Shown here: positions 12,535 through 64,000 of the stretch, in pieces
Layout of the letters: the number at the start of each line of letters is the position of its first letter
How positions within the stretch are numbered: the first letter of the stretch is position 1
Assembly (NCBI GenBank): GCA_003971905.1
Contig: RSEE01000104.1
Coordinates: 62,001 to 126,000, forward strand
Length of the DNA: 64,000 nt
Direction: 5' to 3'
From: Moniliella sp. 'wahieum'
Taxonomy: Eukaryota
Position numbers and translations under genes: made by a program
Notes under the pieces: model-generated
The model's database searches: none
What the model was told of the DNA's origin: nothing
The model's input: the letters and a program-made list of their open reading frames with translations, nothing else

Positions 12535-15048
12535 TGCTGCTACTGCATGTCCCTGGCCCGATGGCCACGGGCAAGCGATCACACATTTTCCTGGTTTCTC
12601 CCTCGGAGGCCATTGTCCTCTGTACGGTGCCTTTCGATACACAATTTACGCATTCACAGAGGCCGTATAACCCTCAGGTAACTCAGAAATAAGAACAAAA
12701 CGCTATAATGCTGCTCCCCGCCAACCACAGACCCACTGCTCTGAGAGACTGGTTGCGTTCAATGCTCTTTACTAGTCCGTCACTTGACGTTTCAAACTAT
12801 AACCATCAGTATACCCGGCGTGGCGTATCGTAGCCAGAAGACACTACCGACCCCTTTCTGACATCCATGACTATCAGGACGATCATGACTGTCATAGATT
12901 GAGGACCTTTACTTTGATGTCATAGACATCAAGTAAATAACGCAGCTGTTCTCGATGACGGGGACGGTAGTGATGTCCATGATGTCAGATACGAAATGGA
13001 TGTCATTGGCGACATGGATACGAGACTCGCTCAGGGTATCAAAGACATCAGGGAAGGGGAAAACATCAAAGGGTTATGCCCTATCAACGATAGGGTTCAC
13101 GTCAAATATGTCGGCGATGACAGCACTACCAAAGATGCCTTAGACGTCGTGAGTGCCTTAGACGTCGGGGTGTCATTGACGTGAGTGATACCATAGGGGT
13201 AATAGATCTCCAACAATGGCATTGATGTCCCCGGGTACCCCGACATCAATGTCTCCGCAGCTTTCCATGGCATCATTGCATCCGCCGATGACACTGTCGA
13301 CATCGAGGACTATGACTGCTCTCCTGTTGCATACACGTTTCTTTGGGGGACTATCCATAATAATGGCTAATCCTATAATTAAACCACAAAAAGGAGATCT
13401 GGTATTTGGATAGATTGGTATTGTATCGTGCCAGGTCACCACATGTGTTCGAAGGGTTAGTATCACAGACGCTGCAACGAGGATCAGCGGGTACAGTTGC
13501 ACCGGAGTCTCAGGGATGGCATCCAGTGAAATGCCCCACTAGTTTCACAGTCCGTTAGACAGCTTCTCCACCTGGTTGTATATTCAGCAAATCGAGACAG
13601 AGATGAAGGAGGATGGGAATGCACATCGCCGGAAGGATCCTGCCCTCCACGCCGTTGAGGTTGCGGTCATACTCTCCCAGGTTGTGTTTGACAACCTTCT
13701 TGTAAAATGAGGCCACACTGACGACACCCAAAGTGGGCCCGCGGGCCTTACTTACCCAGTGGTGCGTCTCCACCTGCAAGTGGGTTCGGGTAGAAGCGTT
13801 CAGAATGTACCGTGAAGAGGAAAGGAACCAATTGAAGATACGCACATTAGTTACGATCTCGTAGCGGATGACCGCTATAGCTAGCGTTATTCTTGCTCGT
13901 ACTTCTTTGCCTAGGCACCCTTTATCATCAGTTGCAGCATCGATAACGGTGCCAGGAGGCCTTGGTCTGGCAACGTGACTTTTGGCCCATTCCTGCTCAA
14001 CCCAACCTTCCTTTCTTCCTTTTGTCAGAGAGAAAGCTGGGTCTCGAGCGATTCAAGATAGATACATACCGCACAAAGGCACCTAGATGAGACGCTTCCC
14101 AAGGAGCCTTCAGGGAACGCATGACTAGCTGTTTAATGTACTTGCGCTGCAAAACCAAAATGCCTTTAAACGGAAAAAGATGCTGTGGTCAGCCTTAATC
14201 ATCTGAAGATGAAAAATGGAGGCATACAGACATAGGGCGGACTTGGCCAACAGCATCTCGAGTCCGCTTTTCTGCGTCTTCATCATCCGCTCGCAGTGGC
14301 CTGCGACATGTGGCCGTCCGCGTCATGATCTCATGAAGAACTTTCCGTTTTGCGCTTTATGGAGTTCATGTTGCGTTTCGTTTACCCCACTTACGGCTTC
14401 GCGGACGTCTGCGACCTGATCTTGGAGTCGGATCATGGCCTTCCACTGGGGTGTCGAGCACGTCATGCTCTCCACAACAGGCGGCTGGCCGAGGCTTGGA
14501 AGTCGGCTTGGAGGTGAACAAACGTATAATGGCCGAGGTGTGCGCGGATGTCGTCCGGCTGATCCTGGATGCAGTCTGGTTGCCTCGCCCGGCCACTGGC
14601 TGTCATCAAAATATCCACATCGGGTCTGATGGGGGCCATATCGGGACTGGCGGGGTCCGAAAGCGTTCAGACGTTGGAATGAATAAGAGTTGGCCTCGCC
14701 TTTAATAACTGCCACTAGTGCTACTAACATTTGCAATGAGAGCTACAGTAGAGGCTAGAGAATATACTCCTGTTGGAAGGAATGATAAGGAAGGTTCCCT
14801 TTGGCTGCGCCTTTTCCCTACAGTGGCGCCACTTTTGGCGCGTGGCCTGGTATACGCCACATGGAACCGTGCTGCAACTGTCACAGATAGCGCGAGTACT
14901 TGCACTGTGTAGTGCACCCTCCGCTTCGACGGACATACTAGCGCATGGAACCGTGTCCGGTGGGCTGAATAATGATGTGAAAGACCAGAGAGCAGGCAGT
15001 TGACGGTGTATTGCATTTTGCACATGAGCGGATGAGCTACAGAGATGG

Positions 15049-15407
15049 TATGGGACGCTCCGGTGTCTCTCGATGCGGAGCCACACATGTCATAGGCATC
15101 TCTTCCAAACACGTCATCAGTCTCTACATGCCTAGCAAGAGAGAGCTACAGTAGTAAGGCATAAAGCGCAGTCAGTTCTGTCAAGTCCGCGGTCCGGTAG
15201 GCCGCAGCAGACAAAGGGTTCTGCCAAGACTGTGGGCGCAATGGGAACAAAGCATCGTACCCATGCGCCCATATTGAGCGGGCTGCGAAGGATGCCAGCT
15301 GCATGGATAGATAAGCTCTCTTGCTAGCCTATGTAGAGGCTGACGTGCTAGTAAGAGATGCCTATGACATGCGGGCTCTGCGTCGGGAGACACCGGAGCG
15401 CCTCGTA
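15049..15407. mobile_element. MITE-like foldback element with ~100-bp imperfect inverted arms
   Basis: 15049-15148 (tatgggacgctccggtgtctctcgatgcggagcc...cctagcaagagagagcta) aligns with the reverse complement of 15311-15407. Both outer ends are TA; spacer is ~160 bp. Confidence 0.65.
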
Positions 15408-15860
15408 ACAAGAGTCAAATTGCTCAACACCGTGCTGCAACTTGGGTCAATTAAAGGACATTAGATTACGATTACACCGAACCATGCCACACTGAGAGGA
15501 GTGTGGAGTTACTATTAGTTACTAGTTTTCTCTATACTGCATCCCTATCATTGACAGAGCTTTAAAGGCGTCGCGGTGCTCTCATGTACCGCCTTCCGGT
15601 ACTCGGTCTGCGCCTGCGGCGTTACGCGTTACATGAGTTGCTTGTTTGCTCAGGGGGACGAGACCAATTTTCTCACGCCCATCGTATTTAGATGCTTTGG
15701 GATGCACCTTACACTACACAGCCCCTGTGCTGGCGCCGCACGGGGCCGCATGAGAGCACCAGTACAACCCTGCTGCCTGCGGCGCCATCGACTGATCGCC
15801 TACTGCGATTCTCAGATCTCATGCCAATCGATAATCTCTTCAAGCTTCGCTTCACTAGCT

Positions 15861-15893
15861 CTTCAAGCTTCAAGCTTCAAGCTTCAAGCTTCA
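15861..15893. repeat. (CTTCAAG)n tandem repeat, ~4.7 units
   Basis: Directly visible. Confidence 0.9.
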
Positions 15894-17479
15894 CTAGCCG
15901 CTAGTCACTAGCTCCACCAGTACTCTAGTACTCTTCGTACTACGTGAGGCCGGGTGAAAAAATGGGAAATGGGAAACGCCCCTGTGCACTTTTACATCAG
16001 CTGACGCGTGCCACGTTCCAGTCCACCCAGCCAGCACGTATCTCTAGGGGGAACGGTGGCTAAGGTGGCGGCCAAGCACCGAGCTGGGGGAAGAGCTGAC
16101 CGGGCCGTAGGCCCGGTGGTCTCTCGTTGGTGATAGTATTTGTCTCTCCAGCGTGGAATGGTGGACCGGTGGACCAATGGAACGGCGGCTACGGTGGCAA
16201 CGGTGACCCAGCCTAACAGGCTGGGGCGAAGCCTCAGCAGACCGGGCCGTGGCCCGGTGGTTTCCTATGAGGCGCATAGCGGTCGCCCACAGATCGCTTA
16301 GTTGGACGAGATGCAAAGAAAAGTAGCGGTGCGATTGATGAATGCCTGGCCCATCGCTGGTCAACTGTGGCGAAGCAGCGAATACGCGGCAAACACACCC
16401 AAGGAGGCGGAACAGCGGCGGAACACGGGGCCATCGCCCCGCACAAAGATACGATGCGAGGGTGCTTGCCCCTCTGACCGGCCACCATCAAGGTTGCATA
16501 AGCAGATCCAGGGACCATTGCCTTTTGCTTGAACATTGAAGCTTGAAGACTGATGGCACTGCTGTCCTTGTGATCGCCGATAACAGATTTGACCTCACTC
16601 GCGTCCTTGACACGAGGATAGCAAGGGAGAGCCGAGATGGCGCTGACATCCTGGATGTCAGAATAAATAAGGTTTCTGACATCAGCGACATCAAGGCCAC
16701 GATGGATATTGGTGACGTGTACACTATCAAAAAGGGGTCGGTAGTGGATTCACTTCTTGCAACACAAGAAAAAGTGATCCGAGAATCCTTTTCTTCGTTC
16801 AACAATCATTAATCATTGTGCGACAGAGTAGTACTTCAATTGTAGCCACGACGGTAAGCAATAAACAAACGGAATCACCCCCTACGGCCTGATCGGTAGG
16901 AATGAGCGAAGAGGGACAAGCGACGAGTATTAGCAGCGAAATGACCACTGAACAAGGCCGAAACTACAGCCAGGGACGAGCAACACCAATGGAAGCTCTC
17001 ATCCAGCGCGCTCACCGCTCACATGTCACATGTCACAGGCCAAAAAAAACTAATGCCCCTCTGCCTCAGCACGTCGACCACCCTCCGACCTCACCGGTCA
17101 CCCTCTCACCCACCTCTCTCTACCAGACAGGCTTATACCCATCTTGATTTTTTCTTCTGCGGGCGATCTGGTTTACGGATCAAGCTGATCAAGCGTGGCG
17201 CATCGCGCCCAAAAACATATGTGCGAAATAAGATGCAGGAGATGAGTACAACAGAGGAGGGGGGTCTGAGATTCGGCGAGTGGGAGAGTGGGAGAGTGGG
17301 AGAGCGGGAGAGTGGGAGGCTCTGACACTCTAGTTCCGACATGTGACAATGAGAAAGGTCAGCGCGACATGGTGCATGGCGAGGGACTGAGGATCCGTGC
17401 AAGATCCGAGGGGCCAAGGGGAGGGACAACCGTAACCCGTACCCGTACCCGTACCCGGTACCCGGCCCCCGTGGCGCAA

Positions 17480-34907: not shown

Positions 34908-37859
34908 ATGAGTGGGCCGCCGACCATGACGGCCTTCCTCGAGGCCGCCGACGCGCTCTACAAGGCCAGCGACCCCGCCGCTCGCTCCCGCGCCAACGAC
35001 TGGCTCCAGGAGTTCCAGCAGACCTCCGACGCCTGGGCCGTCGCCAACGACGTCCTCCTCGCCCAGTCCCTCAGCCTCGAGCCCCGCCTGCTCGCCGCCC
35101 TCACCTTCCACAAGAAGGTCGTCTACGACCTCGCCCAGCTCCCTCCCGCCGCCCAGGACTCCCTCCGCGACACGCTCCTCGTCGCCCTCGCCGGGTACGC
35201 CGCCGGCCCCCGCGTCATCCAGAACCGCATCTGCCTCACCCTCAGCGCCCTCGCGCTCCAGATGCCCACCTGGGCCAACCCCGTGGGCGACATGATTGCC
35301 CGCTTGGCTCCGACCCCGCCACAGTCAACGTCCTCCTCGAGTTCCTCACCGTCCTCCCCGACGAGGTCACCACCAACAACCGCATCCCCATTCGTGTATG
35401 TATGCCCTCCCCTCTTCCTTGTCCTTCTCCTTGTCCTCTTCTTGCTGACCCGGACCGACGCTGGCAACCAGAACGAGGAGTACTATGCGCGTGTGCCGCA
35501 GCTTCTCGGCGCGCATGTAGAAGAGGTGCTGGGCCTGCTTGCCATGTACCAAACCGCCCAGGGCGTCACCACGCCCATCCAAGCCTCCGTCTTCCGCTGC
35601 ATGCAGTTGGCTTGCCTCGGGCGAGGTGACCGCCTCGGACTTTGCCGCGACGCCGCTGCTGGGCGAAGCGATCAAGGCTGGGAGGACCTGCTGTTCGACG
35701 AGGCGGTGGAGGTGGTTGTGTTGGATCAAGGAGACGCAAGAGATCCACGACAATATGAGTGCCATCACCTCGGTTGCGCCGCTGCTGATTGCGCTCGCGC
35801 CCCAGGTCCAACAGCCGGGGACGACGAGGACCGAGTGCGTGGGTATACGCGTGTGTTTTCCCAGGCTGGCGAAACGTGGTCGCCGCTCTTTGTCTCCCAC
35901 CCGGCCCGACTTTGAGCCGCTGGTCCAAGTCCTGCTCACCTGCACCGCCTACAATGACTTGGACATTGTCGGCATCACGTTCCGCTGTTGGTATTTCCTT
36001 GCTGCTGCCGTGTGGCGTGCGCAGGAAAAGGCGTCTCGGCCGGACCTCGATGGTCTGCGCAGCGCCTTTGTCACGCTCCAGGACACGCTCATCCGCCACC
36101 TCCGCTTCCCCGACGATGACAGCAGCTTGACCGCCAAGAGCGTGACGATTTCCGTGACTTTCGCCATGCCATGGGCGACACGCTCAAGGACTGCTGTGAT
36201 GTGTTGACCCCCGAACGCTGTCTCGCCCACTCGCTCGAATTGATACAACAAGCCATGACGCGCAGCCCGCTGAAATGGCAGGACATTGAGGCCCCGCTCT
36301 TCCCATGCGCGCCATGGGCACCCGTGTGGACCCGCACGACGAACAGATCCTGCCCCAGATCATGGAACTGGTACCACGCAGTTGCCTGCCAACCCGCGGC
36401 TCATATGCCGGCCTCCTCGTCCTGGGCCGCTACACAAGTGGGTCGCGTACCATCCGGACCGCATCCCCACCCTGCTCACCTACATCTCCTCGGCGTTTAA
36501 TGATGGCCAAGAAGACGTGACGGCGGCAGCGGCGCGGGCGCTGCGGTTCCTGTGCCTCGACTGTCGCTCCAGTTTGTCTTCGTACCTGCCGCAACTGTTT
36601 GAGTTTTTCAGCATGCTCAACGCGACCTTGTCGCGGGAAAACTACTGGAAGTGTCTGAGGCGATTGCGCATGTCATCTCGGCCCTGCCGCCGGGCGAAGC
36701 TCTAGAGATGCTACTCAAGTTTGTGCAACCTATTCTGCAAGCTGCCGCGTCGACGGCGACGACGGCAGGTTGCGACGATGGAGCAGCTAAAACGCTCGGC
36801 CGATGCGTTGAAGCAAGTGGATCTGATGCTCAAGATCAACCTGGAGAACGCGAGCAACTTACCGCCCAGCTGTGCTGCCACGGCCCAGCAAGCCTACCTC
36901 TTGATTGACGCCATGATCCAAGCGCGGGCGACAAGACGGTCATGTCGGAAGCGACGTGTGCGCTGCTGCGGCGCGGGATCCAGTTCTTTTGGCCAGACAG
37001 CCGTCGAGGTGGTACCGACCATGGTGCTGCACTTGGCGCAGGCCTTCCAAGCGTCGGGCCACCCTGCGTACGTGTGGATCGTAGGTGCAGCCATTGACAA
37101 TTACGGTTTGCGTCCTGAGCCAGAGCTGCGCGAGGCGCTCAGCACCGCATTCACCCTCGTCTCGGGCAGGTGATGCAAGTGGTGGATGCGGCTGCGCCGC
37201 GGCTGGACACGGTGGCGGATTGATTGATGATTATGTGCATGCGTGTGCGCTGGCTGCTCGACGGCACCCGTGGATCCTACTCTTATCGCCGCACCTGACC
37301 GAGCGGCGCACTTGGCGCTCGATGCACTGGACCTGTACCAGCCCGCTACCGTCCAGCGTCGCTAACCTTCCTGCGTGACTTTGTAGGACACGATGCGTTG
37401 CTCTTACTCCTGCCAGGGGGTGTGCCGACGGCGGAGATGATGGCCGCGGCGGCGCAAAGCGCCCGCGAGCGGGACCGACACGCAAACGCTCACCACTTTC
37501 TCCCTTTTGTTGCGGGGGGTCTTGCTTCGGGTCCTGCGCCGCTGGGGGCCCCCGTGGTGCACACCTTGCTCGTTGGTTTGACAGGCAAGTTTGATGCGGA
37601 GAGCAGCCGATCACGGTATCCATTCTGCGCATGTTGGCTTGGCGCGTTCCCATCGCAGTCGGTCGAGTGGGTACGCGCGGGCGTGCCCAGTCTATCCGCC
37701 AGCAACGTGGCCCAAGCGGACAAAGAAGCGTTTGGACGTCGTACCAGACCGCCGTCGCCAGCCACAACTCGACCACATCCGTGTCGCGCTCAACACGCTC
37801 TACGTGCCTCGCGCCGCACGCGCGAACGCGCTCGGATGGATCGATCCATCCAAGATTAG
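34908..37859 (+). CDS. MTR10: Importin-beta family nuclear import receptor Mtr10/transportin-SR
   Basis: ANDWLQEFQQTSDAW, KVVYDLAQLP, LRDTLL, DLDIVGITFRCWY, LIRHLRFP, FRDFRHAMGDTLKDCC, WQDIEAPLF. Intron at ~35394-35471. Confidence 0.87.
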
Positions 37860-40814: not shown

Positions 40815-42054
40815 TTAGGCCGTGCCCAAGAGTTCGGGCGCGGTCTGGTCCTTGACATAAGCCGAGACCGACTCGACCTTATCGCACCAAGTGGCGAGGC
40901 GAGTGCGCAGTTCCTCAATCTGCGTTCGGTCCAGGACGCGTGGCTGGACCCAATCCACCTTGACAGTCCTGGACCTGGTCCATGGTACCGCGAATCAAAT
41001 GGAGCGAGAGGGCCTTCATCACCAGATGTTCCACCTCGTCGAGCGGCAGGCGCGTCTCGCGCGCAATCGAGCCAAACGTGATCGCCGCGCGCTGTTCGGG
41101 CGAGCGGGCAAAGACGGACTGGATCAAGGCCATCAAGCACATTTTTTGGCGCAAAAACGAAACGTTGGCACCTAGGATCGGTTCCGCCGTTTTGGCAGGG
41201 AGCAAGATGGCTTCAAACGCGGCCAAGTCGCCGGCATTGTACGCATTGAGCAGTTGCACCAGCAGCGCATGCGCGCGTGCCCTCCAGCGCGGCCACAATC
41301 GGGTGCAACAGCAACTCGCCAAAGTTGTAAATCGCATCCGATAGCAGCGCAGCCAAGGCCAGGTCGTGCGCACGTTCCACCTTGTCGTCGGTGGACAGGT
41401 CCGTGTCGAGGTTGACACAGGCAAGGTAGAGCAACGAGTTTTTGTAGTAGGGCGCATACTCCGCTTGGCTTTGTGGTAGTCGCCTGCGACGCGGTAAAAA
41501 CGCACCGTACACGGCCGGGTCTACCGCGTCAAACTGGGCCAGCAGGGCGGCACAGTCGTCCATCGCCTGCTTGGTCGCGGGCAAGTTGCCGTGGAGCAGT
41601 TCGAGATGGGCAGCTTCCATGGCGAGGAGGATGTATGCCTCGCGTTGCTGGAAAGGCGAGTTGACGGCGGCGCGGGCGCCAGGAGGCCTGGTAGCGCGGC
41701 TCGCGCTCCTCGTCGGCGCGGGCGCGGGGCTTGACGGCAGCGACCTGGGCCGCGAGGAAGGCGCGGGCATCGGCGGGCGGGGGGAAACGCTTGACGACGC
41801 GCACGGCAATCTGGGCACGGCGGAGCTGGTTGATCTTGCCCTCGAAGCCGGCGACAAAGTGGGTGTAGAGGGAGACGGTGCGCGACGGGGGGTGGCCGCC
41901 TCGGGGAGCTGGAGAAAGTGCTCGAGGGCGAGGGTGAGCTGGTACCAGAGCTTGCGCTCGTACAGGTCGCGCATGGACTCGTACAGCGGCCTGAGCACTT
42001 CGGGCGTGCTGGGCGCGACGGCCTGCTCGGCCAGTACGTAGCGGTGGCGTCCAT
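40815..42054 (-). CDS. RPN9: 26S proteasome lid subunit Rpn9 (PSMD13)
   Basis: LYERKLWYQLT, YYKNSLLYLACV, AHDLALAALLSDAIYNFGELLLHPI, FLRQKMCLMALI, EVEHLVMKALSLHLIRGTMDQV, WVQPRVLD. Confidence 0.94.
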
Positions 42055-50702: not shown

Positions 50703-51996
50703 ATGGCCCGTGGGGGCTGCACTACGACGGCAGTGTCCCCAGCCCGCCCTGCGTGCTGGGCGACATCAGCTACGCCGACATGGCCTCCCTCCTCCCCCAC
50801 CTCAACACCACCGACCCCGTCATGGCCGCCTATGCGCGCGTCGTGTACACTGCGCTGGCCTACGAGCGGGCCGGGGCCAGTGCACCGCTGTCAAGGCCCT
50901 GGCCGACGTGCGTCTTGCCGTGACCTACATCATCTACACCTCCCTGTGCACGGTGCTGTTTCTGCTCCTCACCACTGTCCTGCTCAAGGGCGGCCTGGAG
51001 AGCGCCAAGCGCCGCTCGCCCATCGTCTGGCTGCTCGCTGCCTCCATCCTCCTCGGCCTTGTCGCCTCTGTCTTTGACACGGTCTTCTGGACCGTCGAGA
51101 TGGTCAATGCGCGCATCCCGTCCCAGGTCGCCAATGGCCTGTACGTGGTGGAAGACCTGATGCTCTTTCTTGTGCCTTGGGTTTTGTCTGGGCGCTGATC
51201 CTCCGCCTGGCTGTCTTCTGGCCCCCAGCTCTGTTTGGGCGCAAGAAACAGTTGCTGGTCATCTTGCCTCCCTCGGTACTGCAGTGTGCCAGCCTGGCCT
51301 GCTACGGCCTCGTCCTGCGCAGCGCCACCACAGCGACAGCCGCATTGCCTCTGACTTCTCGCCCCAAGTCAGCCAGCCCAAACCTGCGAGCATGGTGCTG
51401 GGTCAGCACCCGTCTGCCGTCCGCATGCGCTGGGACCACGCGCACTACGCGACGTTTGTCACTGCGCTTCTCTATGTCAACGTGGGCTTATCACGACAAT
51501 GGTGGCGGATGCGCTCCCACCGTGGCACAGGCACCTTGGCACAACTGCGTCGTGGATTGGGAAAGCGCCTGATCCCATCTTACGTCTTGCTTTGCCACCT
51601 ACCATGGCCACCGCTGCGCCGACCTCCTTGGCGCGGGAAGAGGAAGCGCGGCTCTACCGTTCGCTCCGACCGCAACGAAGGGTCGGGCTGTGGTGGACGT
51701 TGATTCGCACACTGCATTTTCTCGCGTTTGGGTTCTGGGTGCCGACAGCTACAGCGGTAGCTAGTTGGGTCGTGCTCGCTACCCAGAAACTGGAGGTGGC
51801 CATGTACCTCGAAGCGGCGTTGGTGTATGTTTCCCCTTGGCGGGCATCGTGGCCTGCTTGGGCGCCACATCCCGATTCTTGGATCGAGAAAACCACTACT
51901 ACCCCTCGGCCACAACCACGTTTGTTACGCCCCCCGAGGAAGGGAAGAGTCCAAGTACGATCCTGCAGAGATAGGAACCGGAGCCGGAGCCGGAGC

Positions 51997-54037: not shown

Positions 54038-57000
54038 ATGATGACCACCATGGATGACCCCCGCATCGCACCCGCCCTCTCTCCGCCGCTCCGATCGGGA
54101 AATCTGTCGACGGGAACGGGGCCACCACCTCGATCGCCGCTGTTGCTTGTCCCCGCCGGTGCTTGTCCCGCCATGGTTGGGCCCTGCCCGCCGTCGGTCG
54201 CGATGGCGTGTGTGGGCCTCCGCCTCCGCCTCCGCCTCCGTCACCACGCCCCCTTGGCGCTCCAGCCCGCCCCGCCATGCTCAACCCCCCGCCCGCCATG
54301 CCGGACGACCGCCGCTCGGTGCGCCGCCCTGCGCCCTTGTCCCTTGTCCCCCACGCCAGCGCAGCGCGCAGCCTCACCCGCCCCCCCCGCCTCCTCCGAG
54401 TTTCCCCTCTCGCCCCTCTCGCCTCTTGACCGCACCCCGCACGCGCGGCTCGGATCCGGATTCGACCCCCTCTGCCCTGGACGCTCCCCGACACGCCCGA
54501 CACGCCCTCGACCCACGCAGCCCCTCCCTCGGCTGCCCGCCCGGCGGCGGCGGCGTCGGTGTCCGGCGCAGCCACGGGCGTTGGTATCGGGCTTGGGCTT
54601 GGCTTCCTCCCCACCCTCCGGCCCCCGGACCTGGACCGTCGCCTGGATCGGGACCGTGCGGACCATCGTGCGCCCACCTCGGCGGCGCCTTTCTTCCCGC
54701 CCTCGGCTTATCCTCCCCCCACAACCACACCCACACCCACACCCACTCGCACGAAGCGGAAGCGTCCGAGGCAAACGCACGCGAGATTCACTTACCGCAC
54801 GGCATCTGTGCCGGACTTCCACGCTGGCCGTGCCAGTCCCGCCGCCGCACGGTTGCCCGCCTCCCAGCACGCTTCGCACTTTGGCTTGGCACGTTTCCCT
54901 CCGCACACGGTGCCCCGTGGTCTAGGTTCGCCCCTGATCAACCCGCCCCGTTCGGCACCTTTTAGCACCACGGCATTTTCCCCCTCTTTGCCGTCCCTCC
55001 CTTCCTCCTCCTTCCCCCCGCCTACCTCCTCCCCTCGCTCCCCATCCGCGCCGACTTGCACTTCAAGCCGTTTGGCGCACATGCGTCTCCACACCTCCTC
55101 AGCCACCCAAGCCTCCTTGGCCATCCCAGCCACCCGAACCATGCCAACCACCTCAACAACCCGAGCAACCTAAGCAACCCGAGCAACCTAAGCAACCCGA
55201 GTAACCTAAGCAACCTAAGCCACCCGAGTAACCTAAGCAACCTGAACAACCCGAGCAACCTAAGCAATCCGAGCAACCTCAGCAACCTCAACAATCCGAT
55301 CCACTCGAATCATCCCACCTACCCCAACCGCCTGTGCTCCTACGCCTCCTCGCCCGAAATGGAAGTGGACTCACCCACGTTCACGCCACTCCCTTCCCAC
55401 CCCCTACTACGAGAGACGACGACCGCGCCAGGGACGGGCACGCTGGGCCGCTGCACCCTTGTGCGTATCTTATCTTTTGGCCCTGTGTGGGCAGCCCAAG
55501 TGGGCAAGGAGGAAACCGTGTTGTTTTCACGCCAACAGGATATGGTACGTTCCCCCCCTCCCCACCGCGCCGTGCACGTAACCAATTGAATTGGCATGGT
55601 CATCCGTTCTAACTCCTTCTTTTCCAGCTCATCTTTGGTGGTCGGAACGGGTTCAACCCGCGCCATCCACTTGGCTTTGTGCGCACGTTGCACAGCTTTG
55701 AGCGATGGGAAAAGATTGTGGATACGGGAAACGTAGGAGCGTTCCGATTCCAGCGGGGCGACTGGTTTTGTGACTTGTGCGGGGAAAAAATGTGGCGGTG
55801 GCGCTTGTCGTGTCGGAAATGCAAGACGGAGCATGCGGCAACGCGGTTGCAGGATCGGAACCAGATCGGGGTCAGCTTGACCCCGGCCGCACTGGCAACT
55901 GCTTGGGAACGGGTCAAACGGACGGAACAGGCCATGCTGTCCGCTACTCTCTCGGCTCTTCACACTATTCCTTCCCTTCCCTTGTCTTTGTCCTTGCCCT
56001 TGCCCTTGCCCCTGCCCAGCCCGGCCGTCTCTACCCCACCGCTGGCTCAGACGACCGACGTCCGCCCGCCTCAGCACTCCCATCCGTCCCATCCGTCCCA
56101 TCCGTCCCATCCGTCCCATCCGTCCCATCCGTCCCATCCGTCCCATCCGTCCCATCCGTCCCATCCGTCCCATCCGTCCCATCCGTCCCATCCGTCCCAT
56201 CCGTCCCATCCGTCCCATCCGTCCCATCCGTCACTTGCTTCTCTCCCCCCTCGACCGGGACGGGCTGCCGGACTGGGCATGCCGTCCGGGGTACTATCTC
56301 CCTTGGCACTTGACGTGCGTTCGCCTGCGCCATTGCTCCAACCCGTTTCGTCCCGCTGTACCCTTCGCCGCTGGCCGAGTATGTAGGGTACGGACCGGAG
56401 CCCAGTCGTCGTCCGAGCTTTGTCCCGAGCCCAAGCCCTACCCTTGGCCCCATCCCCACGGCACCTGCCACGCCCCTGGCCCAGACGGACCTCGCCTCCC
56501 ACCCATCTCCCACCCCAACCCAGCACGACCGCACCAACGGGACCAATGGGACCAACGGGACTAATGGGACCAACGGAACTAATGGGACCAACGGGACTAA
56601 TGGGACCAACGGGACTGATGCCCCTACCACCCCGCCGCGTCCCTCCCCACCAACCCGTTCTCCCACCCCACGCCAACCTCCACCTCGAACGTGACCGTGG
56701 CCACGACGTCGAACGTCAATCCGTCCTCGCATCCCAGCCCGAATCTGAATCTGAGTCTGAGTCTGAGCCCGAACCTTCGTCTAAGTCCGAACCTGTGTCT
56801 GAGCCCGAACCTGGGTCTGAGTCCCAACCTGAACACGAATGCGAACCTGAATCCGAATGCGCACCCGAACCAGAATCTGAACCCAAGTCTGAATGCGACT
56901 GCGACCGTGACTGCGACGACGCTGGATCCGGACCTGGTTTACGTCCCGGACCAGCCGAGCCCTAGCACCAACCCACCGCCCGCACTCCGTTCCCACCTCA

Positions 57001-57216: not shown

Positions 57217-57281
57217 TGCGTCCATATCATTGACAGAGCCTAAGGCTGGGACAGGGGGAATGCTACGTCTAAACCGAACCG
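57217..57281 (+). repeat. Dispersed ~60-bp repeat, copy next to the STE3 3' end
   Basis: TGCGTCCATATCATTGACAGAGCCTAAGGCTGGGACAGGGGGAATGCTACGTCTAAACCGAACC; related copies at ~62986, ~50098 (reverse) and ~15538 (partial). Confidence 0.85.
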
Positions 57282-57683: not shown

Positions 57684-59107
57684 TCAATTGATCTCGGTTG
57701 TAGAATGGATAAGCACTTGGTCCAGTCCCTTGCCTCTCAATTGGGGGGACGAGCATTCCATGTCACCAGCAGCTGTGGCAAATGAATAGCCGTGGTTGTT
57801 CCCCCTTGGTGCATCCAGCATTGACCCACCCGCAACTCCCACGTTTTGCGAAGAGGTAACCTGTTCCTGCCCACATGTGTAAAAGGTAAGCACCACTGGT
57901 GGGAGGCTGAACTCGATCGCCTTTGACCACAAATGTTGTGCTCTGGATAGATTAGTACCAATGACATACCGAGGATGGATTGCGGTTGAAAAGTTGAACC
58001 CAAAAGTAGATATCTTCTTTGTACCGCCGAACGAGGAAACTCTTGACCGCCTTGTACCAATCCCTGTACGCTTGAACCTGCTCCCTGGTGAATCCGTATG
58101 TAAAGAATATCATGAAAGGTACACCAAAGCGAGAAGCAGCGGTAGCATTTCTCCAGACCTTATCGTTGTCGTACACCCAATATGAGACGTTGTAGTCTTC
58201 ATGTTCAAATCCCACGAAACTTCATGAGAATGGGGAATTTAAGTCAGCCTCAAGCTACTGTTACACAAATAATGAATGTACAGTACTCACCGTAATGGTG
58301 CAAGGGCTGCTTCGCCCTTTTCGAGAACTGAAAAATGACCCATATAAGGTACAAAATGGCCACCGTCAATCCGAAAACCAGGAGTCGAACGAAGGCTGCT
58401 GGTTTGACTGCTCCCTTCGTACCCTTGATCAAAGAATCGCGTCTTATCGTGCTCCACAGTCGAAATGTACGCCAACTGGTGAACGCTATTACAGGACAAA
58501 TATTGGTTAATATTCCTGTGAGATATTAGTTCGACGGATCAGAGGGAGAGCGTACTTACCGGCATACCCAGCCGCTACCACAGGCAAAATCAGCAACCAT
58601 ATGAAATGAACGAAGATCCCGGGAACAGTGAAGTCGATAGGGGAGGCGCAGCCACTTGGTCCAAGGATGTCGCTGCGGTGCCCCTGCGACACGTATTGCA
58701 CATCCGGTGAGAACAGTCGGTATACCAACGCCAATACATATATTGATAATGAGAGATCGCTTAGTCTTGGCATGGTTGGTTGACAGGATGGCCAAAATCT
58801 CTCTAAACAAAATCACCTCAGTGCAGGATAACCCAGATAGAGACCACTGTTCGATTGGCAACGATATATCGCACCAATCAATGGTCGTGGACGGTCTGAG
58901 TGTTACCGCCGATAGCATTTTGACATTGGAATATTTCCAGATGTTGGTCGTCATGATCGTGCTTGACACGATCGAGTCGACGTAAAAGCAGTACATCGGT
59001 ACGCATAGATGCCCGCCCTTCTTGAGTTGCACAGGGAGGAGAAGAGCGACCAAAACAATGCTCAAGACACCGAGTGTACCTACGATGCCAGAGTATGCCG
59101 TTACCAT
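57684..59107 (-). CDS. STE3: STE3-type lipopeptide pheromone receptor (Pra-like GPCR); 3' end uncertain (57952 or 57684)
   Basis: STE3 hallmarks in order: NIW...WCDIS, ICIGVGIP, YVSQGHRSDI...GC, FVRLLVFG, SWD.EHEDY and MIFFTYGFTRE. ATG at 59107. Introns at 58516-58559 and ~58220-58290. A few 1-nt indels. Confidence 0.93.
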
Positions 59108-59582
59108 GGCTGGTGTTTGAGGGGGATCGAAAGACTGAGTTGGAAAGAAGAGGTGAAAATGATAAAAGAATGTGGGAGGGCCATGTATATGTACTTCGGG
59201 ATTACTAAAGTACTATAGTGCTACTTATATAATAGGAGACGATCGGACGATGCATAACGATATGGGGAAGATTATCGATACTAACGGTCGGTGTTGTCAC
59301 GCGTGACTCATTCATTAATCATGCAGAAACAATTTTACTTACACATATTGACAGAAAGGCTTCACGCTTGAGAAGCTTGAAGCTTGAAAGCACACAAAAG
59401 GAGGCAAACGTTGTATATTGTCTTTGGCCTCCCATAAAGGCTGCCATAAGGCCGGGTCGCGTGCACAGAGAAATGAGCGTAGCCAGAAGCAACACCCCCA
59501 GAACGGGTTTAGCTGTGTAACAGTGAGTTTAATCGAAGGAACAATACCGGAAGGGGCGATGTTGGGTGACACAAAAAAGGAC

Positions 59583-59591
59583 ACAAAGGGA
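59583..59591 (+). promoter_or_regulatory. Pheromone response element (ACAAAGGGA, Prf1-type HMG site)
   Basis: Exact match to the Ustilago maydis PRE consensus, within the divergent receptor-pheromone promoter. Near-matches at ~59394 (ACAAAAGGA) and ~59571. TATA-like boxes at ~59226 (receptor side) and ~59768 (pheromone side). Confidence 0.7.
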
Positions 59592-59629
59592 ATGATGCAA
59601 AAGGGGGGGGAGACCAGAATAAAGCCGCA

Positions 59630-60245
59630 CCTGCCGATACCCCGCCTTCCAGCAACATACATATCGGTACGTCAGCAAAACTAGCGTGGAAAAGGGGCCG
59701 GGGGGTTCCGGCTCAAGAGATAGGAAACAGACGATAGTATACTCTGCTAGGGATGGTGTGCATTGCTATTTAAGAACAGCTCATTTCCACAATGCCGGAC
59801 GTACATCACCACTACCCTCACCCACTCTTCTCTCTCTCATCAGCCACTGCCGACGCGCACCAGCACACCGTATCTTCCATCAAGATGTCTCTTTCACCAT
59901 GTTCACCATCCCTACCAACACGATGGCGGCCGAGCCTATTGGCCCTGACCAGGACCCGAGTATGTAACGCAGCTCCGTTTGGTCTGATTCGACCGCCGCG
60001 CCCGTATGTTGCTAACACTGTGCTTTTTGCACGCCAGCTGGTTCCATGACTGGCTGTGTCATTGCCTAGAGGGGCTTTCTGGTAAAGCCCTCCCAATGCC
60101 ACGGCAGGTCAATCCCCAATCCTCCCTCCACCGCTGTTAGGCCGCTTAGGCATATCAGCAGTTCTCCTTGGCATCCCTACGGTTGATGCTCATGTCTGCA
60201 CCTGTTCGGCCTGCAGGGATACTGGGAGGCATGCACCAGGAGGTG
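59630..60245 (+). repeat. Direct repeat A (pheromone cassette), partner at 63380-64000
   Basis: Near-identical to the partner from ~59700 onward; more diverged over the first ~70 bp. Confidence 0.95.
59885..60069 (+). CDS. mfa: Mating pheromone precursor, copy 1 (2 exons, CAAX = CVIA)
   Basis: Exon 1 ends at 59959; intron 59960-60037 (GTATGT...GCTAAC...CAG); exon 2 60038-60069 encodes TGSMTGCVIA*. One T is missing after the first ATG relative to copy 2; there is an in-frame ATG at 59899. Confidence 0.88.
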
Positions 60246-60316: not shown

Positions 60317-60348
60317 CCCCCCCCCCCCCCCCCCCCCCCCCCTCCCCC
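60317..60348. repeat. Poly-C tract (26 C + T + 5 C)
   Basis: Directly visible. Confidence 0.9.
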
Positions 60349-60639
60349 ATAGGAGAGAGCAGACAGTTGGTGTGTTTGTTATAGACCAGAGAGCAGGTAG
60401 TTGTTAGTGTATTGCATTGCACATGAACTACAGAGGATAGAGAATATTCCTGCCCGCCAGGAAGGAATATTGCATGGAACAAACCAGAAGGTTCCGGACT
60501 TGGGCTATACCGGCGCCATCACTACACCAGTGTGGCGTCACATCTCCACAGCCCAAGGACGGTACCGACGGTTTTCCTCAAGCGCTCGAGCTCAATCCCC
60601 ACCAAAACCTAGGCACCGGAGTGGCCAGGTGGGGGGAGA

Positions 60640-62940
60640 TCAGGAATAGGACCCAATTCGCGGTCACAGCGGCTCCAGGACCCTGTATGCCAGGCTCTTG
60701 GTGTGGAGGTCGGAGACGGTGTCCACACCTTTTATGGACACAGGAGTAACAATCCCTGCTCGGTTGCTCTCACGTATATCGGTGTAGAAGCGGGCAAGGT
60801 GGCGCGTCCCTTTGGCAGAACCCCAATATTCGCGCAGGCGACTGCCACGGATGAGTCGCACCGAAGCGCGAAAGGAATACCTGTGGAAAAGCACAAGCTC
60901 CACCAACAGTTCACGCAGCGCCACATAGCATAAGCGACACCCTACTCCCTGCCACATACTCCGAGTCGCCCGTGCTGCGTCCCACCACGCGCTGCTTGGC
61001 CGAGCGCCAGCCAACCAAGGCTCCAAAAACGTAGACTGCCAGGCCAGAGGTGGCCTTGCTGTCCCACCTTTCGTTGTAGCTGCTGTCGGTTGTAAAGTTC
61101 CAGCGGTGGGCCAACGGTAGAGTAGGATGGAGTCGGAGCGCTAGACCAGCAGTGTGACCCAAGTAGCCCCATACCCGGCCAAAGCCGTCCAGTGTTGGGG
61201 ACCAGGGTCAGCACAGAATTGTCCAAGTGAGCGCACAGCAAATCAATGTCCGGGCGGGTGCAGGATGCGATCCATCCTAGTGTTCTCACTTCACTGGCGA
61301 AGCGATGTGTCTCCTCCTCCGGACACTGTCGCTCGCCTTCAGCGCGGGGGACAAGCTGAGTCCCCGTAAGAAGAGGTTGACGATAAGGTGGCTCGCCCTC
61401 ACGTCCAAATCTTCTCGTGCTCGCCTTAATATAGTCCTCCTGAGAGAAATCTCCAGGTCGGAAGCGAAACGCACATTCAGAAAGTATGCTAACGGACCGC
61501 CGTCCTTGACATCCACATGTTGGCGTAGGCCCCATAAGAAGTTGTAGTATGCCTCAGCAGATGAGGCAGCGACGCAAGCATCATCCACCCATATACAGAG
61601 GATGATCACCTCTTCACCGCGTACACGGGAAACACGCACCGGTCGGCGACAGTGGAGGTGCAGCCGATGAGTTGGAGCAACCGTAAGTTCTCATACCATC
61701 TCCGCGAGCTCTGCTTCAGGCCATACGGGGCTTTCTTGAGTAGCCACACCTTACCATCTTCCCGCCGAAGCCCTTTGGCGGTTCCATGTACACGTATTCG
61801 CTTGGCTGGACGTCGGCATAAAGAAAGCGGACACCACATCGCAAGTGAAAACGGGTCAGTCAAGACGCAGAGCAAGAACGAGAAACGGTTAGCAGTGCCA
61901 TGAAGCTTACAGTGGCGGCAGATAACGTAGCTGGATCATAGTCAAGGCCCGGGCGTTGAAGGAAGTCCTGGCCCACCCACCGGGTGCGCCGCCGAACTAG
62001 TCAACCGGCCTCGGTTTTGTAATGGCACCGGACAAAGCGGCCCCTCGACACCATGGCATCACTCCCTTTCGCCGGCCGCTGCACGCTCTCCCCAATCCCC
62101 CCCGGTCTTCCAGATTCTTCACCTCATTCCGGAAAGCTGCTCCCACTCGCTTGCACCCGCACCTCGTCGGGCTTCATACTCATTGCGGGATCCACCCACA
62201 GAGGGGGGACATCCCCACCATTGTCCCCACCATTGTCCCCACCATTTCCCACTGTGGCACAGCCGCGGAAATGGGATGGGACGGTTGATATGCTTCGTCC
62301 TAGTTTTGCCCTGATAGGGCCCAAAAATTTGGACCAACGACTGATTGCGCAAATCAGCCTGTAGGGCCGCCTGCCGTCTCGGACGCTCCGACATTGTGGT
62401 CCGGTACCGCAGCATCGGCGCGGTCGGCTCCAACTCCGCAATCGTGGCTGATGGACCTGGGGCACAGGTCCGTAGTTGGTGTCATCACCCCATCGTAACA
62501 TATCCCTCACCCAGGTGAGCCGCCACTGCGATACTGCCCACTCGCCCACTAGCCACTTGCTTTGGCCCACGTCGTATCCAGGAGGGCCCGAGGAGCACCA
62601 CGGCACGACAAGCGATTCTCCGATCCTCTTCATTCACGAGCGCATAGGCCACTGCACCAAAGCGATGAAGGTACCCTGGCGCAGCTGGTTTCTCCAGGTA
62701 ACGCGTGGCAGGATTCGGAGGGCCAAGCTTGCCGATACTCATGTTGCGTATATACGCTGCGGCCTCAATGGCGAGCGGCCAAAGGTCCAGCCACCGCTGC
62801 GATTCACAGCAGTTTCAACGGCGGTGTTGAACGTACTAGGAAGCGAATCTTGGATACGACCGTAGACAAAGGTGTCACGACGCTGGGGTTGAACGTTGAC
62901 AACTTGTGCGCGATTACCTGATGCACCTGCAGTGCTCCCA
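60640..62940 (-). mobile_element. Degenerate, 5'-truncated Ty1/copia retrotransposon (post-integrase region, RT, RNase H)
   Basis: LHRFGAVAY (post-integrase); LLKKAPYGLKQSSRRWY and LCIWVDD (RT); TRPDI; TDSSY...ATSG...WRSAKQRVVGRSTGDSEYVA and SDLHTKSL (RNase H). This is the copia domain order. No gag and no LTR pair were found. Confidence 0.9.
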
Positions 62941-62985
62941 CTCGGTTGTGTTTCTGTTCTGTCACATGTCAGGTTCTCTCTAAGT

Positions 62986-63054
62986 TGCGTCCACTGCATA
63001 TCATTGGCAGAGCTTAAGGCTGGGACAGGGGAGTCGCTACGTCTAAACCGAACC
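62986..63054 (+). repeat. Dispersed ~60-bp repeat, copy upstream of pheromone copy 2
   Basis: ...CATATCATTGGCAGAGCTTAAGGCTGGGACAGGGGAGTCGCTACGTCTAAACCGAACC. Confidence 0.85.
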
Positions 63055-63379
63055 TGTGAAAACATATAGAATCGCAGCAACCGGTAACCAGTAACCTCTC
63101 TTCAAGCCTCAGCTTCTGGCTCTTAATTGAACCCTGTGTGAAACATAGGTCAGGTGGAACAGCGAGCAATGTACACAAGGGAATTATTCTGCGACCCAAC
63201 AGCAGCCAACAGTCATATTGAAGGAAGGATATGTAGCTGAAAACATTGGATTGCCGTATGAAAATATGGCTCAAGGCTTTCACTGCCAGTGGGGGTGAAC
63301 GAGATTCGCTCCACCCACCCCGAACAGAGAGGGCGGACCTTCCGAAAGAGATTTGGAACTTCCGAAAGAGGGAGCCAAC

Positions 63380-64000
63380 TTGCCGATACACCCCGCGTTC
63401 GAGAGCAACGTAGACATCGGTACGTCACAGAAAAACTGGTGTGTAAAAGGGGCCGCGGGGGTTCCGGCTCAAGAGATAGGAAACAGACGATAGTATACTC
63501 TGCTAGGGACGGTGCATTGCTATTTAAGAACAGCTCATTTTCCACAATGCCGGACGTACATCACCACTACCCTCACCCACTCTTCTCTCTCCTCATCAGC
63601 CACTGCCGACGCGCACCAGCACACCGTATCTTCCATCAAGATGTCTCTTTTCACCATGTTCACCATCCCTACCAACACGATGGCGGCCGAGCCTATTGGC
63701 CCTGACCAGGACCCGAGTATGTAACGCAGCTCCGTTTGGTCTGATTCGCCGCCGGCCCGTATGTTGCTAACACTGTGCTTTTTGCACGCCCAGCTGGTTC
63801 CATGACTGGCTGTGTCATTGCCTAGAGGGGCTTTCTGGTAAAGCCCTCCCAATGCCACGGCAGGTCAATCCCCAATCCTCCCTCCACCGCTGTTAGGCCG
63901 CTTAGGCATATCAGCAGTTCTCCTTGGCATCCCTACGGTTGATGCTCATGTCTGCACCTGTTCGGCCCGCAGGGATACTGGGAGGCATGCACCAGGATGT
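63380..64000 (+). repeat. Direct repeat B (pheromone cassette), runs to window end
   Basis: Near-identical to 59630-60245. Confidence 0.95.
63641..63825 (+). CDS. mfa: Mating pheromone precursor, copy 2 (35 aa, intact): MSLFTMFTIPTNTMAAEPIGPDQDPTGSMTGCVIA
   Basis: Exon 1 63641-63716, intron 63717-63793, exon 2 63794-63825. The spliced length of 108 nt is in frame and ends in CAAX (CVIA) then TAG. Confidence 0.92.

What the first reader, a model, noticed from the sequence alone, without database searches (positions are those of the whole stretch)
63641..63825. Intron separates the CAAX box from the rest of the pheromone, giving a possible splicing switch
Seen: in both copies the 77-78 nt intron falls in the codon after QDP, nine codons before the C-terminus. 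If the intron is retained the frame reads ...QDP-S-M-stop and has no CAAX. Established: the CAAX box is required for farnesylation, export and activity. Inference: intron retention gives a null product, so splicing could gate pheromone output. Such genes would also be missed by single-ORF CAAX scans in related genomes.
Basis: partly seen in the sequence, partly recalled or inferred. Interest (0 to 1): 0.7.

Follow-up and report, generated by a model that had tools for sequence, protein, structure and literature searches.

The report
Intron-split mating pheromone gene, duplicated
Two near-identical copies of a small fungal mating-pheromone gene sit next to its receptor gene, each interrupted by an ordinary-looking intron just before the lipid-attachment signal; the gene model holds, but nothing shows that splicing acts as a switch.

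Summary
At 63641-63825 (+), and again about 3756 nt upstream, a short ORF ends in ...QDP and runs into GTATGT. A 77 nt (copy B) or 78 nt (copy A) GT..AG intron with a TGCTAAC branch site follows. A 32 nt exon then ends in GCVIA-stop. Retaining the intron gives ...QDPSM-stop in both copies.

A STE3-type receptor gene lies about 780 nt away, divergently transcribed. A splice-aware CAAX scan of the whole window finds only these two genes; simulated sequence gives a mean of 0.04 per window. The locus is therefore a pheromone/receptor mating-type locus. Its nearest named relative is Tilletiaria anomala, a smut relative (Ustilaginomycotina).

The "splicing switch" has no support. The splice signals are consensus-strength and match constitutive introns in neighbouring genes. 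The RNA fold is unremarkable, and no RNA data could be obtained. Intron-bearing lipopeptide pheromone genes, and their loss in single-ORF scans, are already in print for S. pombe and Yarrowia lipolytica.

The essential RPN9 gene needs 6 frame changes. So the 77/78 nt difference, and a T3/T4 difference that puts copy A's first ATG out of frame, may be assembly noise.

The parts
63641..63716 (+). Pheromone gene copy B, exon 1. It has three in-frame ATGs (63641, 63656, 63680) and ends ...QDP plus the first base of a split Thr codon.
63717..63793 (+). Copy B intron: 77 nt, phase 1, GTATGT 5' splice site, TGCTAAC branch site 23 nt from the 3' end, CAG 3' splice site. A TAA stop lies 6 nt into the intron.
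63794..63825 (+). Copy B exon 2: 32 nt, comprising 2 nt of the split codon, nine codons ending in CVIA, and TAG.
59899..59959 (+). Pheromone gene copy A, exon 1, counted from the first in-frame ATG. The upstream ATG at 59885 is out of frame because of a T3 versus T4 run.
59960..60037 (+). Copy A intron: 78 nt, with the same signals as copy B. It differs from copy B by three 1-nt indels. Retention keeps the reading frame but meets two TAA stops.
60038..60069 (+). Copy A exon 2, identical to copy B exon 2.
59690..60244 (+). Duplicated unit, copy A. It holds a TATA-like box (TATTTAA, 59767-59773), the 5' leader, the gene, and 175 nt of 3' flank.
63446..64000 (+). Duplicated unit, copy B, which runs off the end of the window. 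The TATA-like box is at 63521-63527. It differs from copy A by about 8 indels and about 3 substitutions.
57952..59107 (-). STE3-type pheromone receptor gene. Its ATG is at 59107 and it is transcribed divergently from copy A. The Pfam-supported part is 58525-59074. There is a frame change near 58690-58700. The 3' end is approximate.
59583..59591 (+). Exact match to the smut pheromone response element ACAAAGGGA, in the STE3-pheromone intergenic region, 294 nt upstream of ATG 59885.
   Evidence: 2 in the window, 0.33 expected; the motif is as printed in PMC3248468
60377..63054 (-). Degenerate retroelement remnant between the two copies. It gives weak Ty1/copia RVT_2 hits. Its ends resemble sequences at 14976-15017 and 57223-57280.
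   Evidence: (families D9, D12)

Best explanation
This is the pheromone/receptor (P/R) mating-type locus of a fungus of the Ustilaginomycotina, probably near the Exobasidiomycetes. It carries a STE3-type receptor gene and two directly repeated, essentially identical copies of an mfa-type lipopeptide pheromone precursor gene. Each copy is interrupted by one ordinary spliceosomal intron (phase 1, 77-78 nt) seven codons upstream of the CAAX cysteine.

Inferred mechanism. The intron is removed constitutively, giving a precursor of 30 or 35 residues that ends in CVIA. As in other fungi, the precursor is then farnesylated on Cys, trimmed of VIA, carboxymethylated, cut at the N-terminus and exported, and it activates the STE3 receptor of the compatible mating type. 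A mature peptide of the usual 9-13 residues would span the exon junction.

Shown here: the sequence anatomy, the linkage to STE3, and the match to introns elsewhere in the window. Inferred: splicing itself, peptide processing, and activity.
For: - Canonical intron whose removal joins an ATG-started ORF in frame to CaaX-stop, in both copies.
- The strict splice-aware scan finds only these 2 loci in 64 kb on both strands. In simulations the mean was 0.04, and 4 of 100 had at least 1 hit.
- STE3 (PF02076) is found on two collinear pieces of the minus strand: profile 2-127, E 1.1e-6, 28.6 bits; and profile 123-181, E 5e-9, 36.2 bits against a cut-off of 29.2. The receptor ATG at 59107 lies 777-791 nt from copy A and is divergently oriented. 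Rust mfa2/STE3.2 pairs have this arrangement, described there as reminiscent of the a2 loci of Ustilaginomycetes (PMC5295586 passages).
- Introns in housekeeping genes of the same window look alike. Myosin V 6300-6235 is 66 nt (GTGCGT..TACTAAC) and appears as a 22-residue stop-containing insertion in the alignment to a Tilletiaria protein. Myosin V 5996-5916 is 81 nt (GTACGT..TTCTGAC). The importin intron 35396-35471 is 76 nt (GTATGT..TGCTGAC), supported by frame logic only.
- An exact pheromone response element lies in the intergenic region.
- The single-exon CaaX scan finds nothing near STE3.
- Taxon: the RPN9 piece is 57% and the myosin V piece 74% identical to Tilletiaria anomala, followed by Tilletia, Jaminaea, Testicularia and Ceraceosorus.
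- CAAX processing of basidiomycete pheromones is as stated in PMC3248468 (passage).
Against: - There is no transcript evidence at all.
- No homologue of the peptide, and no related locus, could be found to test whether the intron position is conserved.
- The assembly is indel-ridden, so reading frames in a 185-nt gene are less certain than they look. RPN9 needs 6 frame changes in about 1.2 kb, myosin V at least 5, and STE3 one.
- Copy A's first ATG is out of frame.
- The response-element evidence is thin. With 1 mismatch allowed there are 14 matches against 11.25 expected.
- The STE3 N-terminal piece is just under Pfam's cut-off. The Atlas look-up gave only generic 7TM clusters, with a STE3 cluster at rank 22 and score 0.83.
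- The locus is full of transposon debris and could belong to a lineage in which mating genes are decaying.
Confidence: 0.75

Rival explanations
1. The intron is retained in vegetative cells and spliced only under mating conditions, so splicing rather than transcription alone gates the output of functional CAAX-bearing precursor.
For: Retention gives ...QDPSM-stop without CAAX in both copies. The intron sequence is kept in both copies. From my own knowledge, not from any call: intron retention is the commonest form of alternative splicing in basidiomycetes, and meiosis-specific splicing exists in yeasts.
Against: The splice signals are consensus-strength, not weak, and match constitutive introns nearby. 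There is no unusual RNA structure: z = +0.49. The duplicated unit is near-identical throughout, flanks included, so identity of the intron says nothing about constraint. A response element and a TATA-like box suggest ordinary transcriptional control. I found no report of such a switch for any pheromone gene in the searches and passages read.
Confidence: 0.07
2. A relic or non-functional locus. The pheromone copies, and perhaps STE3, are decaying pseudogenes in a transposon-rich region that no longer recombines or is no longer used, and the intact-looking spliced ORF is residual.
For: A frame change in STE3 near 58690-58700. Copy A's first ATG is out of frame. A retroelement remnant lies between the copies and transposon-related repeats lie around the locus. 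The STE3 region has lower GC, 48% against about 60%.
Against: The same kind of frame change occurs in essential genes: RPN9 has 6 and myosin V at least 5. The protein encoded within each frame is still 80-85% identical to relatives, which points to assembly error rather than decay. From the second ATG to the stop, and at all splice signals, the two copies are identical and intact.
Confidence: 0.12
3. A different gene model: no splicing at 63717-63793, with the CaaX end reached some other way. Candidates are the 7-codon ATG-started mini-ORF inside exon 2 (63802-63825), an upstream alternative first exon (ATG 63547 with donor GTATCT at 63625), or a +4 donor (GTAACG, seen in copy A).
For: The relaxed scan lists these alternatives, and all end in the same CVIA. 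The ATG at 63802/60046 is in the CVIA frame.
Against: The alternative donors lack the G at position +5 or the GTRNGT consensus seen in the confirmed introns of this window. The alternative first exons are not shared by both copies. From my own knowledge, a 7-residue primary product is far below any known precursor.
Confidence: 0.03

Closest known systems
Schizosaccharomyces pombe M-factor genes mfm1, mfm2, mfm3
   Same: They encode farnesylated, carboxymethylated CAAX lipopeptide pheromone. Several gene copies yield one identical mature peptide, and the genes contain introns (passages in bioRxiv 10.1101/366260, and bioRxiv 10.1101/2021.09.28.462209). Because of those introns they are missed by stop-codon-anchored ORF scans.
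   Different: S. pombe is an ascomycete, not a basidiomycete. The position of the intron relative to the mature peptide, and the CAAX sequence, I know only from memory: Davey 1992 and Kjaerulff 1994 are not held. No regulated splicing is reported in the passages I read.
Yarrowia lipolytica YlMFA4
   Same: An a-factor-like pheromone gene copy whose ORF is interrupted by a canonical intron. It was recognised from its 5' splice site, branch point and 3' splice site, and had been masked from a single-ORF CAAX pipeline (passages).
   Different: It is one intron-bearing copy among three intron-less paralogues, whereas here both copies carry the intron. Ascomycete.
mfa pheromone genes at the a (P/R) locus of Ustilaginales (Ustilago maydis, Sporisorium reilianum, U. 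hordei)
   Same: Same subphylum. CAAX lipopeptide precursor genes lie next to the pra (STE3-type) receptor gene. ACAAAGGGA response elements occur in the locus. There are at most two pheromone genes per locus (PMC3248468 passages).
   Different: Where there are two genes per locus they encode different pheromones in the triallelic system, whereas here the two copies encode the same peptide. I saw no mention of introns in mfa genes in the passages read. From memory, U. maydis mfa1 and mfa2 are single-exon. Ustilaginales average under one intron per gene (PMC10262431).
Rust mfa2 / STE3.2 pairs (Puccinia spp.)
   Same: A short CAAX precursor (33 aa) transcribed divergently from a STE3 gene 500-700 bp away, and not predicted by automated gene calling (PMC5295586 passages).
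   Different: No intron is reported in the passages read. Different subphylum.

Membership tests
Fungal farnesylated lipopeptide pheromone precursor (a-factor / Mfa type) | Short precursor, roughly 30-60 residues | tested here: met
   After splicing the product is 30 residues (copy A, from 59899) or 35 residues (copy B, from 63641).
Fungal farnesylated lipopeptide pheromone precursor (a-factor / Mfa type) | C-terminal Cys-aliphatic-aliphatic-X followed directly by a stop | tested here: met
   CVIA then TAG in both copies.
Fungal farnesylated lipopeptide pheromone precursor (a-factor / Mfa type) | Genomic linkage to a STE3-type receptor gene | tested here: met
   PF02076 on two collinear pieces of the minus strand, 58525-59074. 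The receptor ATG at 59107 is about 780 nt from copy A.
Fungal farnesylated lipopeptide pheromone precursor (a-factor / Mfa type) | Sequence similarity to known pheromone precursors | not tested
   The spliced peptide is a joined sequence, so I did not submit it to any search. A degenerate DNA pattern for the exon 2 peptide found 0 metagenome contigs.
Fungal farnesylated lipopeptide pheromone precursor (a-factor / Mfa type) | Pheromone-responsive promoter element | tested here: inconclusive
   One exact ACAAAGGGA lies in the intergenic region. The window has 2 against 0.33 expected, and 4 of 100 shuffles reach 2. With 1 mismatch there is no enrichment: 14 against 11.25.
Fungal farnesylated lipopeptide pheromone precursor (a-factor / Mfa type) | Expression, farnesylation, export and receptor activation | not testable with these tools
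   No RNA run was listed and no genome is held.
Canonical spliceosomal (GT-AG) intron | GTRNGT 5' splice site, CTRAY branch site 10-40 nt from a YAG 3' splice site | tested here: met
   GTATGT, TGCTAAC 22-23 nt from the 3' end, CAG.
Canonical spliceosomal (GT-AG) intron | Length and signals typical of confirmed introns of the same genome | tested here: met
   The local introns are 66, 81 and 76 nt with GTGCGT, GTACGT and GTATGT and with CTAAC or CTGAC. Two are confirmed by protein alignment and one by frame logic.
Canonical spliceosomal (GT-AG) intron | Removal restores an open frame; retention interrupts it | tested here: met
Canonical spliceosomal (GT-AG) intron | Spliced junction seen in RNA | not testable with these tools
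   One search listed no run.
Regulated intron-retention switch | Suboptimal splice signals, or a special intronic element or structure | tested here: not met
   Consensus signals. The fold gives z = +0.49. No relatives were available to test for conserved intronic elements.
Regulated intron-retention switch | A retention ratio that depends on condition | not testable with these tools
   No RNA data.

The most novel reading that the evidence does not exclude
In this lineage of smut relatives, the pheromone gene's intron is removed efficiently only under mating conditions. Production of a CAAX-bearing precursor would then be gated after transcription. Both gene copies keep the intron because it is part of the control, not a passenger.
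Probability: 0.07. Interest if true: 0.6.

Novelty: new member of a known kind. Interest (0 to 1): 0.25.

Why it matters
The main value is practical. Pheromone genes at basidiomycete P/R loci are usually found with single-ORF CAAX patterns; the Trichosporonales survey, for example, used M-X(15-60)-C-aliphatic-aliphatic-X-stop (bioRxiv 10.1101/626911). A gene built like this one is invisible to such scans. A lineage could then be wrongly scored as lacking a pheromone gene, or as asexual. A splice-aware scan next to STE3 recovered this gene cleanly.

The point is not new in principle, because it is in print for S. pombe and Y. lipolytica. I did not find it stated for a basidiomycete in the 15 papers I opened. 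The regulatory idea would be interesting if true, but it is pure inference for now.

Tried and rejected
- Whole-genome search: no genome is held for this window.
- Sequencing runs: none was listed, and no RNA holder was listed. Read laying could therefore not be used.
- Earlier notes of this scan: none.
- STE3 N-terminal piece against the protein collection, longer lengths: nothing at E <= 1e-5.
- Related loci in metagenome contigs with the STE3 piece: 254 pattern matches, none confirmed.
- Degenerate pattern for the exon 2 peptide in metagenome contigs: 0.
- ESM Atlas on the STE3 piece: only generic 7TM clusters. A STE3 cluster came at rank 22 with score 0.83, which is a lead only.
- Bacterial promoter/terminator scan: not applicable to a eukaryote, so disregarded.
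- Homeodomain genes: none among the 138 ORFs of at least 170 aa or 135 of the 141 ORFs of 90-169 aa in the chosen regions. The 6 omitted ORFs overlapped the pheromone repeat. Linkage between HD and P/R is therefore not seen in this window.
- The idea that the two 555-nt repeats are LTRs of the element between them: rejected. The remnant has its own ends (60377-60418 and 62997-63054) that match transposon-related sequence elsewhere in the window (families D9, D12, D13). A chance CAAX gene with an intron inside an LTR is also very unlikely.
- Alternative donors and first exons from a relaxed scan: poorer signals, and not shared by both copies.
- A second candidate ending CIAI-stop (ATG 59559; proposed intron 59667-59737): no branch motif, and its stop lies in the TATA-like box. 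I treat it as chance.
- Literature. Searches, plus passages on 'intron' in 15 papers, gave no report of an intron in a basidiomycete pheromone precursor gene and none of regulated splicing of any pheromone gene. Most subscription-journal papers are not in the library, including the primary Ustilago hordei, Coprinopsis and Schizophyllum pheromone papers, so this is not proof of absence. Davey 1992 and Kjaerulff 1994 are not held. Supplementary alignments of smut pheromone precursors (PMC3248468, Figure S4) were not opened.

Full report
**What is in the sequence**

At 63641 on the plus strand an ATG opens a short frame that ends ...GAC CAG GAC CCG A and runs straight into GTATGTAA. Coordinates for copy B were computed:
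- exon 1: 63641-63716
- intron: 63717-63793, 77 nt, GTATGT...TGCTAAC...CAG
- exon 2: 63794-63825

Exon 2 completes a split Thr codon, reads nine more codons ending Cys-Val-Ile-Ala, and stops at TAG. Reading through the intron gives ...QDPSM-stop.

A second copy lies about 3756 nt upstream. Its exon 1 ends at 59959, its intron is 59960-60037 (78 nt), and its exon 2 is 60038-60069.

**Is it more than chance?**

- The junction 19-mer occurs 2 times against 0.01 expected. Exon 2 occurs 2 times against 0.00 expected.
- I wrote a splice-aware scan requiring ATG, GTRNGT, a CTRAY branch site 8-45 nt from YAG, an intron of 45-150 nt, a CaaX-stop, and a product of 25-70 residues.
- On both strands of the window it returns exactly these two loci and nothing else.
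- In 100 second-order Markov simulations the mean was 0.04 per window; 4 of 100 had at least 1 hit and none had 2.
- The two copies are one duplication and count as one event.
- A single-exon CaaX scan finds one unrelated ORF at 50780-50923 and nothing near the receptor gene.
- A relaxed scan adds only poorly signalled alternatives.

**Surroundings**

On the minus strand, two collinear ORF pieces match Pfam STE3:
- profile positions 2-127, E 1.1e-6, 28.6 bits, just under the cut-off of 29.2
- profile positions 123-181, E 5e-9, 36.2 bits

The receptor's ATG is at 59107. Receptor and pheromone copy A are therefore transcribed divergently, about 780 nt apart. The intergenic region holds one exact ACAAAGGGA at 59583; the window has 2 against 0.33 expected. 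This is the pheromone response element of smuts as printed in PMC3248468. With one mismatch allowed there is no enrichment, so I treat the element as suggestive only.

Each gene copy sits in a duplicated unit of at least 555 nt: 59690-60244 and 63446-64000, the second running off the end of the window. Each unit includes a TATTTAA box about 115 nt upstream of the first ATG.

Between the copies lies a degenerate retroelement remnant (60377-63054). It gives weak, collinear RVT_2 hits, and its own ends match sequence elsewhere in the window. The pheromone repeats are therefore not its LTRs.

Other genes in the window are myosin V, MDM31/32, an AAA ATPase, a transportin-like importin, RPN9 and a DUF3533 protein. 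No homeodomain gene was seen among the ORFs scanned.

**Whose genome?**

The RPN9 piece is 57% identical to Tilletiaria anomala, followed by Testicularia and Ceraceosorus. The myosin V piece is 74% identical to Tilletiaria, followed by Tilletia horrida and Jaminaea at 71%. Unnamed relatives reach 80-85%. The window therefore comes from a fungus of the Ustilaginomycotina, probably near the Exobasidiomycetes, with no close named relative in the collection.

- RPN9 (40818-42034, minus strand) aligns to its relatives end to end without any intron, but only by changing frame six times. The peptide in each frame is still 80% identical to the best relative.
- One of those RPN9 changes sits at a run of T.
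- Myosin V needs at least five such changes, and STE3 needs one near 58690-58700.
- RPN9 is an essential gene, so these are almost certainly indel errors of the assembly, at roughly one per 200-1000 nt.
- The two pheromone units differ by about 8 indels and only about 3 substitutions, which is the same signature.
- Three differences between the copies may therefore not be real: the 77 versus 78 nt intron length; the fact that retention keeps the frame in copy A (which still meets two TAA stops); and the T3/T4 difference that puts copy A's first ATG (59885) out of frame, leaving 59899 as the first usable start.
- From the second ATG through the 5' splice site, and across the branch site and exon 2, the copies are identical.

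**Is the intron credible?**

Three introns in housekeeping genes of the same window serve as a yardstick.
- Myosin V 6300-6235: 66 nt, GTGCGT..TACTAAC. It shows up as a 22-residue, stop-containing insertion in the alignment to the Tilletiaria protein.
- Myosin V 5996-5916: 81 nt, GTACGT..TTCTGAC. It accounts for the gap between two aligned segments.
- Importin 35396-35471: 76 nt, GTATGT..TGCTGAC. It joins the two Pfam-supported frames.

The pheromone intron (77-78 nt; GTATGT; TGCTAAC 22-23 nt from the 3' end; CAG) fits this set and is, if anything, closer to consensus. One strict-motif candidate inside myosin V (3311-3219) proved to be coding sequence, so motif matches alone are not proof. For the pheromone gene the added evidence is that removing the intron restores the frame to a CaaX-stop next to STE3.

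**How it most likely works**

I read this as an ordinary P/R mating-type locus. The intron is most likely removed constitutively. The 30- or 35-residue precursor is then farnesylated, trimmed, carboxymethylated, cut at its N-terminus and exported, as stated for basidiomycete pheromones in PMC3248468. It signals through the STE3 receptor of the compatible type. If the mature peptide has the 9-13 residues known from Ustilago maydis (recalled, not from a call), it spans the exon junction. In that case the intron does not separate a pro-region from a mature module.

**The splicing switch**

Nothing supports it.
- The splice signals are strong, not weak.
- Folding the intron with its flanks gives z = +0.49; 133 of 200 shuffles fold at least as well.
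- The intron's identity between copies is uninformative, because the flanks are just as identical.
- No RNA data were obtainable.
- No related locus was found in which to test conservation.

I cannot exclude the switch. I give it about 7%.

**What is known**

- Intron-containing lipopeptide pheromone genes are documented in S. pombe. One passage says its pheromone genes contain introns and are therefore missed by an ORF-tracing algorithm. Another reports mutations in pro-sequences and introns of mfm1-3 across 151 strains.
- In Y. lipolytica, YlMFA4 is interrupted by a canonical intron that masked it from the pipeline.
- Basidiomycete surveys commonly use single-ORF patterns or add pheromone genes by hand.
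- In nine literature searches and the 'intron' passages of 15 papers, I found no report of an intron in a basidiomycete pheromone precursor gene, and none of regulated splicing of a pheromone gene. The library lacks most subscription-journal papers, including the primary descriptions for U. hordei, Coprinopsis and Schizophyllum, so I do not claim this is a first.

**Verdict**

This is a correct and neat piece of gene finding: a new member of a known kind. It has a useful practical message for annotating mating loci, but the regulatory gloss is unsupported. Interest 0.25.

Noticed in passing
window 40818-42034 (-), 1683-6637 (-), about 58690-58700 (-): Conserved genes need frame changes with no extra nucleotides: RPN9 six, myosin V at least five, STE3 one. 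Within each frame the peptide stays 74-85% identical to relatives, and one change sits at a run of T. This looks like indel error in the assembly rather than gene decay.
   Followed up: partly
window 59885-59899 versus 63641-63656: Copy A has TTT where copy B has TTTT right after the first ATG. In copy A that ATG opens a 28-codon out-of-frame reading after splicing, and the pheromone frame starts 14 nt later. This is either a real upstream ORF or a homopolymer error.
   Followed up: partly
window 60377-63054 (-): A degenerate Ty1/copia-like remnant lies between the two pheromone copies. It gives two collinear weak RVT_2 hits, both below Pfam's cut-off. Its ends resemble sequences at 14976-15017 and 57223-57280, so the same element family is scattered around the locus.
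   Followed up: partly
window 55079-55321 and 56021-56286: Two long arrays of 9-nt tandem repeats: about 18 imperfect copies, and about 20 copies of CCGTCCCAT. Their translations give weak collagen-like and proline-rich hits.
   Followed up: no
window 60317-60342: A run of 26 C about 250 nt downstream of copy A's stop codon, just before the retroelement remnant.
   Followed up: no
window 59559-59775 (+): The relaxed scan finds a second CaaX-like reading ending CIAI-stop, with its ATG at 59559 and a proposed intron at 59667-59737. It has no branch motif, and its stop codon lies inside the TATA-like box of the pheromone gene. Probably chance.
   Followed up: partly
window 59567-59598 and about 63172-63184: The exact response element at 59583 sits in a tandem GACACAAA..GG context. 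Upstream of copy B, outside the duplicated unit, there is a version one base shorter (ACACAAGGGAAT).
   Followed up: partly
window 8001-16000 and 58001-60000: These are islands of lower GC (48-52%) against 60-72% elsewhere. The second island holds STE3. The first holds transposon-related repeats and a DUF3533 gene (11486-12531, +) that is split across frames.
   Followed up: no
window 50780-50923 (+): The only single-exon ATG-to-CaaX ORF in the window: 47 residues, ending CVLP. It lies in GC-rich sequence far from STE3 and is probably spurious.
   Followed up: no
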